64,000 bases of DNA from Acidimicrobiia bacterium. GTDB lineage: Bacteria; Actinomycetota; Acidimicrobiia; Spongiisociales; ZC4RG35. A program made the position numbers and the translations under genes. The stretch spans positions 3,008,001-3,072,000 of the forward strand of contig OZ244034.1 in the NCBI GenBank assembly GCA_965215185.1, in the 5' to 3' direction. Below the pieces are notes generated by a model that saw nothing but the letters and a program-made list of their open reading frames with translations, was not told where the DNA came from and did not search any database. The number at the start of each line of letters is the position of its first letter. The stretch's first letter is position 1. Of the stretch, positions 2,417 through 7,180 are shown piece after piece.

Positions 2417-2752
2417 TGAACCGTTCCGGGTTTCCCGGAGAGTGTTTTACTTGAGTCCAGCTAGCTGGACTCGCTTTTGTTGACGATGGTAGTTGGCCTC
2501 CTTCTCTGCTGGTGGGATGTGTCCTATTGGTTCGAGGAGTCGGCGGTGGTTGAACCAGTCCACGTATTCGAGGGTGGCGTACTCGACCTGGTCGAGGTCC
2601 TTCCACGGAGCGCGTTTGTGGATGAGTTCTGTCTTGTACAGGCCGATGACGGATTCGGCGAGGGCGTTGTCGTAGGAATCCCCAACCGAGCCGACCGATG
2701 GTTCGATGCCGGCTTCGGTGAGCCGGTTCGTGTAGCGAATGGACAGATATTG
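2417..2752 (-). mobile_element. IS3-family right arm (OrfB C-terminus plus right IR), copy 1
   Basis: QYLSIRYTNRL...GDSYDNALAES...WFNHRR; ends in ...CCCGGAACGGTTCA. Confidence 0.9.
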
Positions 2753-4206
2753 CCCAGGTTCAAGGGGTCGTTGCAACACTGCCTTGTTTGAGGGAGTGTA
2801 GGTATTCGTTGAGGGCCTCGGCTGGAGTCCTCCAGCCGAGGGTTTTGCGGGGTCGGCTGTTGAGTGCTGCAGCGACAGCGTCGAGGTCGTTGCGTGAGTG
2901 TCTGTGGAGGTCGGTGCCTTTGGGGAAGTATTGGCGGAGCAGACCGTTGGTGTTCTCGTTGGTTCCACGCTGCCATGGACTCTGCGGGTCGCAGAAGTAG
3001 ATGTCGAGGTTGGCCTCTGTGCGGAGTTGAGCATGCTGAGCCATTTCGACTCCTTGGTCCCAGGTCAACGACTTCCGGAGCTGTTGGGGCAGGGTGATGA
3101 TCGACGCAGCGATAGCGTCTCGTACGGCTTGGGCGCCATGGCCGGCGAGAGGGGGCCCGTTGTGGACCCGTTGCTGTTTTCGGTGGCCTGGCATGGGTGG
3201 GAGATGCAACAGCATCGTGAACCGGGTGGTGCGCTCAACCAGCGTCCCGATCGCGGAACTCCGAAGTCCCAGGATCAGGTCACCTTCCCAGTGTCCTGGC
3301 ACTGCCCGGTCGTCGGCCTCGGCGGGGCGTTGGCTGATCATGATCTCGGGGCTGACGAAGGTGCGGCGCCGCTGCCGGGTCCGTGCCCGCGGGACCCGCA
3401 AAGCTCGCCCGGTTCGCAGACACGCCACAAGCTCCCGTTTTAGCGCGCCTCGGCCTTGCACATAGGCCGCCTGGTAGATCGCCTCGTGAGAGATCCTCAT
3501 GGACTCATTATCAGGGAAATCGATCCGGAGCCGCCTCGAGATCTGCTCAGGACTCCACGACGTTGCCCACCGCCGATCAGCTCGCCTTCCGTGACGGCGA
3601 CCCGCCCAGCGCACCTGGGGCCCTGGCACCAGCTCACCATCCGGGCGGGCGATCTGACCACCCAAACGATCCTGCACATACTCACGAAGCTCGTCGTTGG
3701 CGGCCAGCTTCGCGACCTTCGGGCGGCTGGCACGCCGCTCCGCGTGCCACTGCGCTGTCGTTGCCCGATAAACCACACCACGACTACGAGTTGCGGCGTT
3801 GCGCCGCAACTCCCGCGAAATCGTCGACGCGCAACGACCAAGGCGACGACCGATCTCCCGCACCCCCACACCCTGCGCACAGAAGATAGCGATCTCTTCC
3901 CGTTCGGTAAACGACAGATAACGGCCCGACACCGAACCCAGAGAGATCGGCGGCATCCCACCAGCCTGGCGGAACCATCTAGACCCAACCGCCGGTGACA
4001 CCCCCGCCCCGGCAGCAGCGTCCTCGCTCGAGACACCCCCAGCGATCGCTTCCCAGAACCGGACCCGATCCTCACGCCGCGCTTTCGACGGCCGACCAGG
4101 CGACCACAACTGACCCCGCATCACACGAACCGCCTCCCGACGCTTCACAACACTCACCGCAAACCTCCTTCATCACCAAGTGTTGCGACCACCAATTGAA
4201 TCCGCC
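2753..4206 (-). mobile_element. IS30-family insertion sequence
   Basis: 27-bp imperfect IRs CCCAGGTTCAAGGGGTCGTTGCAACAC and GGCGGATTCAATTGGTGGTCGCAACAC around a full transposase. Confidence 0.92.
2760..4157 (-). CDS. IS30-family transposase
   Basis: STISRELRRN HTH; GHWEGD, TWDQG, SPWQRGTNENTNGLLRQYFPKG; GGAGG RBS. Confidence 0.95.
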   Translation of the reverse strand: MSVVKRREAVRVMRGQLWSPGRPSKARREDRVRFWEAIAGGVSSEDAAAGAGVSPAVGSRWFRQAGGMPPISLGSVSGRYLSFTEREEIAIFCAQGVGVREIGRRLGRCASTISRELRRNAATRSRGVVYRATTAQWHAERRASRPKVAKLAANDELREYVQDRLGGQIARPDGELVPGPQVRWAGRRHGRRADRRWATSWSPEQISRRLRIDFPDNESMRISHEAIYQAAYVQGRGALKRELVACLRTGRALRVPRARTRQRRRTFVSPEIMISQRPAEADDRAVPGHWEGDLILGLRSSAIGTLVERTTRFTMLLHLPPMPGHRKQQRVHNGPPLAGHGAQAVRDAIAASIITLPQQLRKSLTWDQGVEMAQHAQLRTEANLDIYFCDPQSPWQRGTNENTNGLLRQYFPKGTDLHRHSRNDLDAVAAALNSRPRKTLGWRTPAEALNEYLHSLKQGSVATTP

Positions 4207-4542
4207 CAATATCTGTCCATTCGCTACACGAACCGGCTCACCGAAGCCGGCATCGAACCATCAGTCGGCTCGGTTGGGGATTCCTACGACAACGCCCTCG
4301 CCGAATCCGTCATCGGCCTATACAAGACAGAACTCATCCACAAACGCGCTCCGTGGAAGGACCTCGACCAAGTCGAGTACGCCACCCTCGAATACGTCGA
4401 CTGGTTCAACCACCGCCGGCTCCTCGAACCCATCGGAGACATCCCACCAGCAGAGAAGGAGGCCAACTACCATCGTGAGCAGAACCGAGTCCAGCTAGCT
4501 GGACTCAAGTAAAACACTCTCCGGGAAACCCGGTACGGTTCA
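4207..4542 (+). mobile_element. IS3-family right arm, copy 2 (inverted relative to copy 1)
   Basis: Same 336-bp segment as 2417-2752, about 13 mostly synonymous differences counted by eye. Confidence 0.9.
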
Positions 4543-4712
4543 CATCTCGAAGGTAACCAACGGACCCACCGAAGCCCTCAACAACCTCATAAAGCGGATC
4601 AAACGCATCGCGTTCGGGTTACCCAACTTCGCGAACTACCGAATCCGCGCCCTTCTCTACGCCGGGAAACCCAACTGGGACCTATTGGCCACCGTCACTC
4701 CCCACTGAAATC
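4543..4712 (+). pseudogene. ISL3-family transposase C-terminal fragment; its IR continues at 6192-6199
   Basis: TNGPTEALNNLIKRIKRIAFGLPNFANYRIRALLYAGKPNW; end CTGAAATC...GATGAGCC split by IS110. Confidence 0.85.
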
Positions 4713-4727
4713 CACTCATACTTAGAA

Positions 4728-4905
4728 GGTTCCTGGGCTGGGACGGGTCTGACCCAACTGAAATCTGGCCTTGTGCCTTTTCATCGATCTGTCGGCCTGT
4801 TCCCGGCCTGGGGCGTAACCCCCTGACCCGGGGCGGATGTGACCTTATAGGAGCTTTGATCTTCCTCCACCGTGAGTGGCCTGTCCACCGCTTGCCGGGT
4901 CCGGG
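4728..4905 (+). ncRNA. Predicted IS110 bridge RNA (boundaries approximate)
   Basis: Two stem-enclosed loops carrying ACTGAAATC/TCATCGAT (match target flanks) and ATAGGAGC/TGAGTGG (match element ends). Confidence 0.75.
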
Positions 4906-4944
4906 GATCGGAAATGATTCTATCCCGCAGAGGAGGAAGGTGTC

Positions 4945-6175
4945 ATGGGAGAAGATGGTCGGGTTGTGTTCGGTGGGGTTGATACCCATCGTGATACCCA
5001 TGTTGCGGCGGTGGTTGATGGCGCCGGTCGGGTCCTGGGAACGGCACCGTTCGGGGCTGATCCGGTCGGATATGAGCAGATGACCAGGTGGTTCGGAACC
5101 CACGGGCACCTGCTCCGGGTAGGAGTGGAGGGCACCGGCAGCTACGGCGCCGGCCTAGCCCGCTATCTGATGGCGGCGGGCATCGAGGTGGTAGAAGTGA
5201 ACCGGCCGAACCGGCAGTTACGCCGCCAGAGGGGCGGCAAGACCGACAGTGTCGACGCCGAGGCGGCAGCTCGGGCAGCGGCCTCGGGGCAAGCTACCGC
5301 AGTTCCCAAATCTGGTGACGGCCCGGTTGAGTGCATACGGATGTTGTTGGTGGCCCGCCGCTCGGCTACCAAGGCCCGCACCCAGGCCGCTAACCAGATC
5401 CATTCTGTGGCCGTTACCGCACCTGAACAGGTAAAACGCCAGCTCAGAGGTCTCAAGCTCAAGGCCCGGGTTCGGGTCTGTGCCCGCTGGCGTCCCGGCC
5501 AAGCACAGACCACTGCGGCGTACGCGAAGATGGCTCTACGCTACCTGGCCCGCCGATACCAAGCCCTCGACACAGAAATCGCAGAACTCAAGATCGAGAT
5601 CCGTCGCCTCTGCGCCGAGGCTAACCCGGCTCTGTTAGCCGCCAAAGGTGTGGGCCCTGACACCGCTGCCGCCCTGCTAGTCGCAGCCGGCGACAACCCC
5701 CAGCGGATGAAATCGGAACGGTCCTTCGCGGCGCTGTGTGGCGCCAGCCCCGTCCAGGCATCATCGGGACAGACCATCCGGCATCGTCTCAACCGGGGAG
5801 GTAACCGCCAAGCCAACAACGCGCTCTGGCCGATGCGCTACCACCCGGATACGCCACGACGCAGCCACCAACCAATACGTGGCACGGCGCCAGGGGGAAG
5901 GAAAGAACCGAAAAGAGATCATCCGCTGCCTCAAGCGGCACATCGCCCCACAGGTCTACCGACTGCTGACCAACCCGCCACCAACCCCGAACTGCGCCCG
6001 GCTCCGCCGCCGACGTCAACACGCCAACATCACCGTCACCCAGGCCGCCCAACAGCTCGGAACCCACCCCAGCCGCATCTCAGCACTCGAACGCGGCCGA
6101 GACCACAACCACCAACTCGCCAGCCGATACCAGACCTGGCTCCTAACCCACGAACCGGCCCCATCACCGACTTGA
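4945..6175 (+). pseudogene. IS110 recombinase with C-terminal XRE-like HTH; +1 frameshift near 5830
   Basis: GVDTH, VEGTGSYG, KTDSVDA and ASSG motifs intact; ANNALW continues as RCATTRI...RCLKR in the 5738..6175 frame. Confidence 0.88.
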
Positions 6176-6321
6176 CAACCATAGGAGCATCGATGAGCCG
6201 GTTTAGGGGGGGTGCTCTGCCCCGGGAGATCCGCATCCTCGAAGAACTCGGCATGATCAACCCCCAACCCGCCCCCCTAACCAGCGGGAAGTCCGACGCT
6301 TCTACCAAGCAGACCACACCC

Positions 6322-6465
6322 TGAGGTTGACCCGCTTCGGTGGACGCTCTAAGACTTGGGATTGTTCCCAGATAGGAGTGTTCAGAGAATGCCGAAGACG
6401 AGACGGCCGTATCCGGCGGAGTTCCGAGCGGAGATGGTTCGCGTGGTCAGGGCGGCTCGTAGCCC
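6322..6465 (+). mobile_element. IS3-family left end and truncated OrfA
   Basis: TGAGGTTGACCCGCTTCGGTGGAC end, then MPKTRRPYPAEFRAEMVRVVRAARSP from 6389. Confidence 0.75.
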
Positions 6466-6752
6466 TTTCCGAAGGACCGGGATAGGTGCCACACGCTTAC
6501 GTTGCCGATGTGGCGACCAGGCACTTCGGTACGGCGGACCGAGAAGTCGTACACTCGGGCCTCGCGCCAGGACTGCATGCTCCGTTCGACGAAGCTGGCT
6601 GCCCGGGCTCTGGTATAGGGGGCGGTCGCCCAAGGTAGGAACCGGGCCAGTTCGGTCTTGGAAGCGTTGACGGCCCGGTAAAGGGCGTCGATGTCCTGTC
6701 TCCTGAAGGGGCGTAGTACGGACCGTTCCGTGTGGCGGTCGATGGGCGGCAG
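6466..6752 (-). pseudogene. Truncated RimJ/RimL-type GNAT acetyltransferase
   Basis: TERSVLRPFRRQDIDALYRAVNASKTELARFLPWA...HIGNVSV; C-terminus replaced by IS3 remnant. Confidence 0.7.
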
Positions 6753-6833
6753 GGTTCCCGCGATGATCTGCTTATGTCCGGTCGTTCCTGGATGGGCAAA
6801 GCTGCATCGAGGAGGTTCGGCTCCGGAGACTAG

Positions 6834-6977
6834 CTAGGCGCAATCCTGCTGAACCGAATGGAACGGGTGGGGGACTCTCTCGATGACTACACCACCCGTA
6901 CCCTGGTCCTGCACGGCACCGAGGACAGCCCCGTCCCCCTTCTGCCAGTGGGCCACCGGGCGCACTTCCGTCCGTAG
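6834..6977 (+). pseudogene. Alpha/beta hydrolase fragment
   Basis: LGAILLNRMERV...TLVLHGTEDSPVP, no start or N-terminus. Confidence 0.4.
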
Positions 6978-7180
6978 ATCGGAAGGTCTATCGAAGTATC
7001 AAGTATGATTCCATTGACGAACCCCTTGGAGTAGCGCTGCTCAATGACATCATCACCCGGGTACGTGAACAGGTCAGAAGTGGGCTCCAGAAGACAGAAT
7101 CACCAGAGCCTTGGGGTCATGGGGTACGATAAGAAAACTAGTAGGATAGATTGGATAACAGGAGATAAGGAGGACTGCGT

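What the first reader, a model, noticed from the sequence alone, without database searches (positions are those of the whole stretch)
4690..6199. The IS110 guide appears programmed against the terminal repeat of another transposon (ISL3)
Removing 4713-6191 rejoins ...ACTCCCCACTGAAATC to GATGAGCC, restoring the stop codon region and GGCTC-type right end of the ISL3 remnant. Some IS110/IS1111 members are known to target transposon ends. Inference: this element parasitises ISL3 ends, gaining a multicopy safe site and possibly immobilising the ISL3.
Basis: partly seen in the sequence, partly recalled or inferred. Interest (0 to 1): 0.7.

Follow-up and report, generated by a model that had tools for sequence, protein, structure and literature searches.

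The report
RNA-guided IS110 targeting ISL3 transposon ends
A small jumping gene of the IS110 type, which uses its own RNA guide to pick its landing site, is aimed at the right-hand end of a different jumping gene (ISL3); this is a clear new example of a known behaviour.

Summary
A 1478-bp IS110-group element (window 4714-6191) sits 8 bp inside the right inverted repeat (IRR) of an ISL3 remnant. Removing it restores CTGAAATCCGATGAGCC, with two Cs, exactly as at empty ISL3 ends in the same genome.

The left end folds into a bridge-RNA-type target loop. Its two guide segments match the ISL3 end: ACTGAAATC equals left-flank positions -10 to -2, and TCATC is the reverse complement of right-flank positions +1 to +5.

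- In this genome, 2 of 2 copies carrying this guide lie in ISL3 IRRs.
- In related genome G196, 16 of 17 do, at the same base, in ISL3 copies at different loci.
- Near-identical IS110 copies sit in ISL3 ends only 87-98% alike, so they inserted independently.
- Across 16 sibling guide classes, guide and flank covary (0 of 10,000 shuffles reach the observed match).

The window copy is frameshifted. Immobilisation of ISL3 is inferred, not tested.

The closest known case is IS4321/IS5075, which sit in Tn21-family inverted repeats. This is a new member of a known kind, of moderate interest.

The parts
4180..4542 (+). Fragment of an IS3-family element (C-terminal integrase core plus right end ...CCGGGAAACCCGGTACGGTTCA). 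It truncates the ISL3 copy on its left.
   Evidence: Pfam rve_3/rve_2 on 4180-4509. ISL3 homology starts at about 4541. A second, inverted copy of this fragment lies at genome 3010450-3010779, window 2450-2779.
4541..4713 (+). ISL3 remnant: the last ~55 codons of the transposase (stop TGA 4706-4708) and the inner 18 bp of the right inverted repeat (4696-4713, CACTCCCCACTGAAATCC).
   Evidence: Pfam DDE_Tnp_ISL3, E 8.8e-10. 87-93% DNA identity to three other ISL3 copies in the genome and 83% to a more diverged remnant. Inverted repeats defined.
4714..6191 (+). IS110-group insertion sequence, 1478 bp. It has no terminal inverted repeats and makes no target duplication. One C at the junctions is shared with the target.
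   Evidence: Junctions compared with empty sites. Same ends in 12 left ends and 15 right ends of relatives in the genome.
4714..4944 (+). Left non-coding end (231 nt), read as encoding the bridge RNA.
   Evidence: Conserved scaffold with variable guide blocks in 12 genomic copies. Long 5' non-coding end upstream of the transposase gene, as in the IS110 group.
4717..4722 (+). CATACT, a -10-like hexamer. In a circle junction it would lie 17 nt from the TTGACA at 6172-6177.
   Evidence: Read from the sequence. Junction promoters are described for IS110 elements. Not shown to be active here.
4731..4813 (+). Target-binding stem-loop: a long lower stem, a 13 x 13-nt internal loop and a short GGC/GCC cap.
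   Evidence: RNAalifold on 24 left ends gave 25 pairs, 10 of them with compensatory changes.
4757..4765 (+). Left target guide ACTGAAATC. Same sense as left-flank positions -10 to -2 (window 4704-4712).
   Evidence: 9 of 9 match. Strand sense as in Durrant et al. 2024.
4781..4787 (+). Right target guide TCATC, followed by the constant GA. Its reverse complement (TC)GATGA matches right flank GATGA (6192-6196).
   Evidence: 5 of 5 match.
4848..4854 (+). Left donor guide candidate TAGGAGC. Same sense as the element's right end TAGGAGCATC (6182-6191).
   Evidence: Conserved in 11 of the 12 aligned left ends; in the 12th (c374092, whose left end diverges after about 100 nt) the block is not recognisable. 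Matches the right ends. Assignment by analogy; the structure of this loop is not resolved.
4872..4879 (+). Right donor guide candidate GTGAGTGG. Its reverse complement CCACTCAC matches the left junction CC+ACTCA (4712-4718).
   Evidence: alignment; reading by analogy.
4945..6175 (+). Transposase (bridge recombinase) gene, broken by one extra G at 5835. Intact relatives encode 409 aa with DEDD, Tnp and C-terminal helix-turn-helix domains.
   Evidence: Pfam PF01548, PF02371 and HTH_31. Frameshift shown by alignment with intact copies. PDB sequence matches: ISCro4 transposase E 2.4e-13, IS621 transposase E 1.5e-10.
6172..6177 (+). TTGACA, a -35-like hexamer in the right end. It overlaps the stop codon and lies 14 nt from the element's last base.
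   Evidence: Read from the sequence. Conserved in the right ends, although that regex required it.
6192..6199 (+). Outer 8 bp (GATGAGCC) of the ISL3 right inverted repeat, cut off from the rest by the IS110.
   Evidence: Target duplications directly outside this tip in G196.

Best explanation
Window 4714-6191 is an IS110-group insertion sequence. The RNA encoded in its left end carries a target-binding loop whose two guide segments specify the right inverted repeat of an ISL3-family insertion sequence. The expected sequence of events follows.

1. The element excises as a circle. This step is inferred.
2. A TTGACA-17 nt-CATACT promoter forms across the joined ends. The motifs are present; activity is not shown.
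3. The left-end RNA is made. [quoted passage not shown] 4. The DEDD/serine recombinase exchanges strands at the C between the two segments.

The element therefore always lands 8 bp inside the ISL3 right end. It always lies in the same orientation as the ISL3 transposase gene, 5 bp after that gene's stop codon.

The result is a repeated, non-essential landing site. A by-product is that the ISL3 right repeat is split into 18 bp plus 8 bp, which should cripple that ISL3 copy (inferred). The window copy itself carries a frameshift and is probably dead or dependent on intact relatives.
For: Shown directly:
- Removing 4714-6191 restores the exact sequence of empty ISL3 right ends.
- The guide segments match, left 9 of 9 and right 5 of 5, in the strand sense reported for IS621 bridge RNA (passages of PMC11208160).
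- The loop sits in a conserved stem-loop: 25 pairs, 10 with compensatory changes, 24 sequences.
- The protein has PF01548 and PF02371 and matches the solved bridge recombinases ISCro4 and IS621.

Specificity:
- In G000, 2 of 2 copies with this guide are in ISL3 right ends.
- In G196, 17 exact guide 23-mers were found. Of these, 16 lie at the same base of ISL3 right ends with different outer flanks, 1 lies elsewhere, and none lies in a left end.
- 8 of 10 occupied copies examined have perfect 8-bp ISL3 target duplications around the ISL3+IS110 unit.
- G196 has 15 empty perfect targets. None of 9 ends of the variant ...GAAACGCGATGAGCC is occupied, against 16 of 31 canonical ends. Fisher p = 0.006, but the copies are related, so this is only a hint.

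Independence of the insertions:
- Nine subtype-B IS110 copies that are 99-100% identical sit in ISL3 ends only 87-98% identical to each other. There is no correlation between the ISL3 and IS110 distance matrices (r = 0.08; 425 of 2000 permutations reach it).

Programmability:
- In 16 guide classes of the family, the cognate guide-flank match averages 7.6 of 9, against 4.9 of 9 for non-cognate pairs. 0 of 10,000 shuffles reach the observed value.
- Subtypes A and B are only 81% identical overall yet have identical guide loops.
Against: - One element in G011 sits at exactly this ISL3 position but carries a different guide, matching 3 of 9 on the left and 2 of 5 on the right.
- One of the 17 G196 copies is off target, matching 5 of 9 and 1 of 5.
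- The two guide halves would fit a site with one C. The real site has two, so the halves abut instead of overlapping by a 2-nt core as described for IS621. The donor reads TC where the target reads CC.
- No RNA, circle or transposition was observed. laid only assembled contigs and showed no circle junction.
- The donor-binding loop structure was not resolved.
- Rfam gave no match.
- The window copy is frameshifted.
- Copies within a genome are related, so the counts overstate independence.
Confidence: 0.9

Rival explanations
1. The many ISL3::IS110 units arose from a single chance insertion. The composite was then spread by ISL3 transposition or duplication, so the association says nothing about IS110 target choice.
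For: 8 of 10 occupied copies have ISL3-type 8-bp duplications around the whole composite. This is what composite transposition would also leave.
Against: Near-identical IS110 copies (99-100%) lie in ISL3 ends that are only 87-98% alike, and the two distance matrices are uncorrelated. The same ISL3 end variant carries either IS110 subtype. The guide matches the site. The outer 8 bp alone would have to serve as an ISL3 end.
Confidence: 0.04
2. The site is chosen by protein-DNA recognition, for example by the C-terminal helix-turn-helix domain binding the ISL3 repeat. The sequence match in the left end would then be a by-product.
For: The recombinase carries an extra HTH_31-type domain. IS621, at 328 residues, is about 80 residues shorter. 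The G011 element occupies the same site with a non-matching guide.
Against: The HTH is visible in the two lineages that share this ISL3 target (subtypes A and B). Sibling lineages with other targets align with the window element through the region that encodes it, but I did not translate them. What changes with the target across 16 guide classes is the guide block. The match has the two-strand sense specific to bridge RNAs.
Confidence: 0.04
3. The similarity between the guide block and the flank results from recombination or gene conversion with the flank after insertion. It would not be a functional guide.
For: None found. Considered only because a 9-nt direct repeat lies 44 nt apart.
Against: The same relation holds for the reverse-complemented right guide and for many unrelated flanks. 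The guide blocks sit in a structurally conserved internal loop.
Confidence: 0.01

Closest known systems
[quoted passage not shown] Partridge & Hall 2003, seen only as a title in reference lists. The seekRNA paper reports nearly 900 IS4321 insertions at that target (passage).
   Same: A DEDD-recombinase element that lands at one fixed position, and here in one fixed orientation, inside the terminal inverted repeat of a different transposon, so it uses another mobile element as a repeated landing site. That IS4321/IS5075 also lie in one orientation is recalled from memory, not from a call.
   Different: Here the guide RNA is encoded upstream of the recombinase gene (IS110 group, not IS1111). No subterminal inverted repeats were seen. 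The host element is an ISL3-family insertion sequence rather than a Tn3-family transposon. The bacteria are Acidimicrobiia-type genomes, going by the record titles, rather than enterobacterial plasmids.
IS621 and the bridge-RNA mechanism (Durrant et al. 2024, PMC11208160, passages read; structure entries 8wt6 and others).
   Same: Domain make-up, a long left non-coding end, a target loop whose left guide has the sense of the top strand and whose right guide is antisense, donor-guide candidates matching the element's own ends, and -35/-10 halves split between the right and left ends.
   Different: The target is an IS end rather than a REP element. There is an extra C-terminal HTH domain. The guide halves abut around a single shared C (target CC, donor TC) instead of overlapping on a conserved CT dinucleotide. 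Sequence similarity to the IS621 protein is distant (E 1.5e-10).
IS1111-attC group and REP-targeting IS110/IS1111 elements (ISPa11, ISPpu9/10, ISKpn4). Passages; abstracts.
   Same: Site-specific use of repeated genomic sequences as landing pads.
   Different: Those targets are host or integron repeats, not the end of another insertion sequence.

Membership tests
IS110 family, IS110 group (bridge-RNA-guided insertion sequences) | [quoted passage not shown] | tested here: met
   E 5.4e-25, residues 11-155 of the 4945-5829 translation.
IS110 family, IS110 group (bridge-RNA-guided insertion sequences) | C-terminal Tnp domain (PF02371) with the conserved serine region | tested here: met
   E 1.4e-15. 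The ...ASSGQT... stretch aligns with ...YESGSS... of the ISCro4 transposase. That this serine is the catalytic one is recalled, not tested. The window copy is frameshifted at 5835; intact 409-aa relatives exist.
IS110 family, IS110 group (bridge-RNA-guided insertion sequences) | No terminal inverted repeats and no target-site duplication | tested here: met
   The ends ACTCATAC... and ...GGAGCATC are not inverted copies of each other. Empty and occupied sites differ only by the element plus one shared C.
IS110 family, IS110 group (bridge-RNA-guided insertion sequences) | Long non-coding end upstream of the recombinase gene that encodes a structured RNA with a target-binding internal loop | tested here: met
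   231-nt left end. Consensus stem-loop with a 13 x 13 internal loop, 10 of 25 pairs compensatory. No Rfam match.
IS110 family, IS110 group (bridge-RNA-guided insertion sequences) | [quoted passage not shown] | tested here: met
   9 of 9 and 5 of 5 for the window copy. Covariation across 16 guide classes, 0 of 10,000 shuffles. Strand rule.
IS110 family, IS110 group (bridge-RNA-guided insertion sequences) | Second internal loop whose guides match the element's own ends (donor-binding loop) | tested here: inconclusive
   TAGGAGC and GTGAGTGG match the right end and the left junction. Single-sequence and alignment folds did not give one consistent loop.
IS110 family, IS110 group (bridge-RNA-guided insertion sequences) | Conserved 2-nt core shared by donor and target and covered by both guide halves | tested here: inconclusive
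   Only one C is demonstrably shared. The target reads CC and the donor TC. The guide halves abut rather than overlap. Two registers occur in the family.
IS110 family, IS110 group (bridge-RNA-guided insertion sequences) | Circular intermediate with a promoter formed across the joined ends | not testable with these tools
   TTGACA (6172-6177) and CATACT (4717-4722) would be 17 nt apart in a circle. No circle junction appeared in the assembled contigs of 4 runs.
IS1111 group (IS4321/IS5075 type) | Guide RNA region downstream of the recombinase gene, and subterminal inverted repeats | tested here: not met
   Only 16 nt follow the stop codon, and the non-coding region lies upstream. The element therefore behaves like IS4321 but is not a member of that group.
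ISL3 family (the target element) | DDE_Tnp_ISL3 transposase, imperfect terminal inverted repeats beginning GGCTC, and 8-bp target duplication | tested here: met
   PF01610 on the remnant. An intact 425-aa copy in the genome. 26-bp inverted repeats. 7 of 7 perfect 8-bp duplications in G196.

The most novel reading that the evidence does not exclude
This IS110 clade is a specialised parasite of other insertion sequences. It has repeatedly re-programmed its target loop onto competitors: the ISL3 right end, the right end of an IS3-family element, the right end of its own relatives, and a conserved stretch of another IS110-like transposase gene.

On this reading it splits and disables the competitors while using their copy number, and possibly their read-through transcription. 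The ISL3 ends respond with escape variants, such as the unoccupied ...GAAACGC... ends. That would be an arms race between transposons run through a programmable RNA.

The recombination geometry also tolerates an extra base at the crossover, a register not described for IS621.
Probability: 0.3. Interest if true: 0.65.

Novelty: new member of a known kind. Interest (0 to 1): 0.45.

Why it matters
This is a clean natural case in which the specificity of a bridge-RNA element can be read from genomes.
- Guide, empty targets, occupied targets, one off-target copy and an unoccupied target variant are all available side by side.
- It extends the habit of landing in another transposon's end from the IS1111 group (Tn21 repeats) to the IS110 group and to ISL3.
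- Sibling lineages in one genome appear to have been retargeted to other IS ends. That bears on how these guides evolve and on transposon-against-transposon competition.
- The one-base offset between the guide halves and the crossover is a natural variant of the core geometry. People engineering bridge recombinases may want to test it.

Tried and rejected
- Rfam scan of window 4000-7000 at E up to 1 gave 0 matches, so no curated RNA family covers this left end.
- Whole-left-end folds gave a convincing target loop but no stable donor-loop structure. I did not build a covariance model.
- Sequencing runs: 24 runs were listed, all kept as assembled contigs. Four were laid.
  - The contigs are short and repeat-collapsed. 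No contig joins 6191 back to 4714, so no circle was seen.
  - The only joint near the ends (4723 to 6182 with a G between) is explained by relatives whose left end reads ACTCATACTTGTAGG. I reject it as a circle.
  - Uncovered parts of the RNA run X16 are not evidence of anything.
- The pattern search over 201 genomes of the order with 2 mismatches returned mostly chance hits. None of the 30 auto-fetched loci L013-L042 has the guide scaffold, including the exact match in G078.
- I tried to fit one crossover model with a 2-nt core to all copies and failed. The core options TC, CC and CG/CA each fit the window copy's junctions only if a mismatch is allowed, and the family shows two registers.
- I considered testing ISL3 immobilisation by comparing ORF intactness of occupied and empty copies. 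I dropped it because it would not be decisive.
- Literature: searches found no paper describing IS110 elements in ISL3 ends. ISL3 occurs 0 times in the bridge-RNA, seekRNA and structure papers listed there.
- PMC219399 (Partridge & Hall 2003) is not held. I saw only its title in reference lists.
Full report
**What is there.** The window lies at G000:C1:3008001-3072000. Around the finding the sequence is a pile of insertion sequences.
- An IS30-like gene lies at 2760-4157 on the minus strand (HTH_38 plus a weak rve hit).
- An IS3-family fragment lies at 4180-4542 (rve_3).
- The last ~55 codons of an ISL3 transposase follow at about 4541-4708 (PF01610).
- Then comes an element with a DEDD_Tnp_IS110 and Transposase_20 gene at 4945-6175.
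- A blastn of 4690-6199 against the genome gave the self hit, a second full-length copy at 3102701-3104208 (82%) that shares both flanks, and about a dozen 72-75% relatives and fragments.

**The observation.**
- The left junction reads ...CACTCCCCACTGAAATCC|ACTCATACTT. The right junction reads ...CATAGGAGCATC|GATGAGCC.
- Two other ISL3 copies in the genome end ...CACTGAAATCCGATGAGCC and ...CACTGATATCCGATGAGCC, followed by unrelated DNA.
- The ISL3 inverted repeats are GGCTCTTCGGAAATGAGGGGGGAGTA on the left and GGCTCATCGGATTTCAGTGGGGAGTG on the right, the latter given as its reverse complement.
- The IS110 therefore lies 8 bp inside the right repeat.
- The ISL3 stop codon (4706-4708) is untouched.
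- In G196, 7 of 7 empty ISL3 copies (1433-1438 bp) have perfect 8-bp duplications directly outside these tips. This fixes GATGAGCC as the true end.

**The guide.** Aligning 12 left ends from the genome shows a constant scaffold with two variable blocks.
- In the window copy the first block is ACTGAAATC (4757-4765). This is identical to the 9 nt of left flank at 4704-4712.
- The second block is TCATC (4781-4785). This is the reverse complement of GATGA at 6192-6196.
- This is the strand arrangement Durrant et al. describe. [quoted passage not shown]
- RNAalifold on 24 left ends from several genomes places the two blocks on opposite sides of a 13 x 13-nt internal loop. The loop sits above a long stem, with 25 pairs in all, 10 of them with compensatory changes.
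- Further downstream, TAGGAGC (4848-4854) repeats the element's right end. GTGAGTGG (4872-4879) is antisense to the left junction CC+ACTCA. These fit donor guides, but I could not fix the structure of that loop.
- TTGACA (6172-6177) and CATACT (4717-4722) would be 17 nt apart in a circle. This is the junction-promoter layout reported for the family.

**Is the site choice real?**
- In G000 the 15-mer ACTGAAATCCGATGA occurs once unoccupied, at the intact ISL3 copy.
- Both G000 elements with this guide are in ISL3 right ends. A third, degraded right end also abuts GATGAGCC at genome ~1322627.
- A 16-mer left-junction pattern searched in 201 genomes of the same order gave 15 exact hits in one genome, G196.
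- In G196, 16 elements, including one in a slightly diverged end, sit at the same base of ISL3 right ends with different outer flanks.
- The exact guide 23-mer occurs 17 times in G196. The 17th copy is elsewhere, matching 5 of 9 and 1 of 5.
- G196 also holds 15 empty perfect targets, about 30 left-end-type sequences (none occupied), and 9 ends of a variant ...GAAACGCGATGAGCC. None of those 9 is occupied, against 16 of 31 canonical ends. Fisher p = 0.006, and the copies are not independent.
- 8 of 10 occupied copies checked keep a perfect ISL3 duplication around the ISL3+IS110 unit.
- An exact 21-mer scan of one genome per species found 16 stretches. Fifteen lie in one record titled as a Candidatus Spongiisociaceae MAG, and one in a record titled as an Acidimicrobiia MAG. 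The window's own genome is left out of that scan.

**Independent insertions or one composite?** Two IS110 subtypes (A and B, 81% identical) carry the same guide.
- Nine B copies in G196 are 99-100% identical to each other. The last 300 bp of their ISL3 hosts are only 87-98% identical.
- The two distance matrices are uncorrelated (r = 0.08; 425 of 2000 permutations reach it).
- This rejects spread of a single composite. It points to recent, repeated insertion into pre-existing, diverged ISL3 copies.

**Programmability in the family.** Other copies carry other guide blocks that match their own flanks.
- Across 16 guide classes from G000 and its relatives, the best-register match of the left guide averages 7.6 of 9. 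Non-cognate pairs average 4.9 of 9, and 0 of 10,000 shuffles reach the observed value.
- Two classes do not match their flank, each at 3 of 9. One is the G011 element that lies at exactly the ISL3 position but carries the guide of another lineage. It is about 96% identical to a G000 copy with a third guide.
- I cannot explain the G011 case. Replacement of a resident copy, or a half-site reaction, are guesses.

**What does not fit the textbook.** In IS621 both guide halves include a shared CT core.
- Here the halves plus the constant GA would specify ...AAATC+GATGA with a TC core. The real site has an extra C.
- The left junction reads CC and the right junction reads TC in all 18 copies seen in ISL3 right ends (2 in G000, 16 in G196). 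Only one C is demonstrably shared.
- Across the family the left guide ends either at -1 or at -2 from the element. The -2 cases always have a C at both positions.
- This looks like tolerance of one extra base in a C run at the crossover. I could not settle it.

**State of the window copy and movement between genomes.**
- The window gene has one extra G at 5835. Intact relatives encode 409 aa.
- The same frameshift allele is in 4 of the 16 ISL3-resident G196 copies, at different loci. A defective lineage has therefore spread, presumably helped by intact relatives.
- The window copy is 96.5-97.6% identical to subtype-A copies of G196. The second G000 copy is 99.3% identical to subtype-B copies. 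G000 and G196 are in different families of one order. That indicates recent horizontal transfer.

**Expression.** Only assembled contigs were available.
- In one metatranscriptome run (X16) a 192-nt contig with 3 differences covers 4705-4896, that is, the junction and both guide loops. It starts in the ISL3 flank.
- It could be read-through from the ISL3 gene, or DNA in the library. It is a weak hint only.

**Comparison and verdict.**
- The element meets the tested defining features of the IS110 group. The exact core geometry and the donor-loop structure are inconclusive, and the circle is untestable here.
[quoted passage not shown] It is not an IS1111-group member, because its non-coding region lies upstream of the gene.
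- I found no paper describing IS110 elements in ISL3 ends.
- I rate it a new member of a known kind. The main claim is well supported (0.9). Immobilisation of ISL3 is untested.

Noticed in passing
G000:C1 ~1098932 (-), ~1095842 (+), ~1005646 (+); right ends at 971233, 978220, 1283655, 1095983. Compare window 4520-4542.: Sibling IS110 lineages carry guides (TATGAAACC/GGCAC, TACCAAACC/GGGCA) that match ...GAAACC(C)|GGYACGGTTCA. This resembles the right end of the IS3-family element seen empty in the window (CCGGGAAACCCGGTACGGTTCA). One left flank has an IS3 integrase hit ending about 116 bp upstream.
   Followed up: partly
G000:C1 1097483 (-), nested in the right end of the copy starting at 1098932; also 909140 and 2341230.: Three copies carry guides (TTGACAAAC or TTTGCAAAC, with ATAGA) that match the right end of IS110 relatives themselves (...TTGACAAAC|ATAGGAGCATC). 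One is found nested in exactly that position.
   Followed up: partly
G000:C1 979954-978480 (-) and 374092 (-): A lineage with guide AACTCAACC/AAGCC sits inside what reads, by my own reading of the flanks, as the conserved ...GDRQLN|KAIHTIA... stretch of another IS110-like transposase gene. It would thus target a coding motif of a competitor.
   Followed up: no
L004 / L075 (G011:C10 ~2331229-2332821): An IS110 sits at exactly the ISL3 right-end position but carries the AAACTCAACC/GAGCC guide, which does not match the site (3 of 9, 2 of 5). The element is about 96% identical to G000 copy 1005646, which has yet another guide, so guide blocks are exchanged between lineages.
   Followed up: partly
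Window 4712-4713 and 6191; all family copies: Two registers of guide against flank occur: the left guide ends at -1 or at -2. In the -2 class both positions are C, and the guide halves abut rather than overlap. The junctions read CC on the left and TC on the right in all 18 copies seen in ISL3 right ends.
   Followed up: partly
Window 5835; L044, L045, L049, L057: The same one-base frameshift allele of the recombinase gene occurs in the window copy and in 4 of 16 G196 copies at different ISL3 loci. A defective lineage has multiplied and crossed between genomes.
   Followed up: partly
G000 copies against G196 copies (L043-L060): IS110 subtype A is 96.5-97.6% identical, and subtype B 99.3% identical, between two genomes placed in different families of one order. 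ISL3 end variants are also shared. This indicates recent horizontal transfer of these elements.
   Followed up: partly
G196:C1, e.g. 181114, 479336, 1601850, 1720264, 3227218: Nine ISL3 right ends of the variant ...CTGAAACGCGATGAGCC (or ...CTAAAACGC...) are all unoccupied, against 16 of 31 canonical ends occupied. This may be a variant that escapes the guide, or simply a different ISL3 subfamily.
   Followed up: partly
L080, L081 (G096); L082-L084 (G191); L002 (G033); L058, L059, L079 (G196); L085 (G011): A further lineage keeps almost the same left guide (AACTGAAATC/T) but has a different right half. It sits in a different repeated sequence (...GATGGCGATCACTGAAATTC|...|CCCA...), which suggests retargeting by changing one guide half at a time.
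   Followed up: no
Window 5990-6110 (frame of 5738-6175): The recombinase has a C-terminal XRE-type helix-turn-helix domain (HTH_31, E 2.9e-08). IS621, at 328 residues, is too short to carry it. Its role is unknown.
   Followed up: no
Window 2447-4543: Two inverted copies of the same IS3-family C-terminal fragment (2450-2779 minus strand and 4180-4509 plus strand, 92.7% amino-acid identity) flank an IS30-like gene (2760-4157, minus strand). This end of the window is an IS graveyard.
   Followed up: no
Window 4705-4896: In one metatranscriptome run (X16) a 192-nt assembled contig with 3 differences covers the ISL3/IS110 junction and both guide loops. It could be read-through from the ISL3 gene, or DNA in the library.
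   Followed up: no
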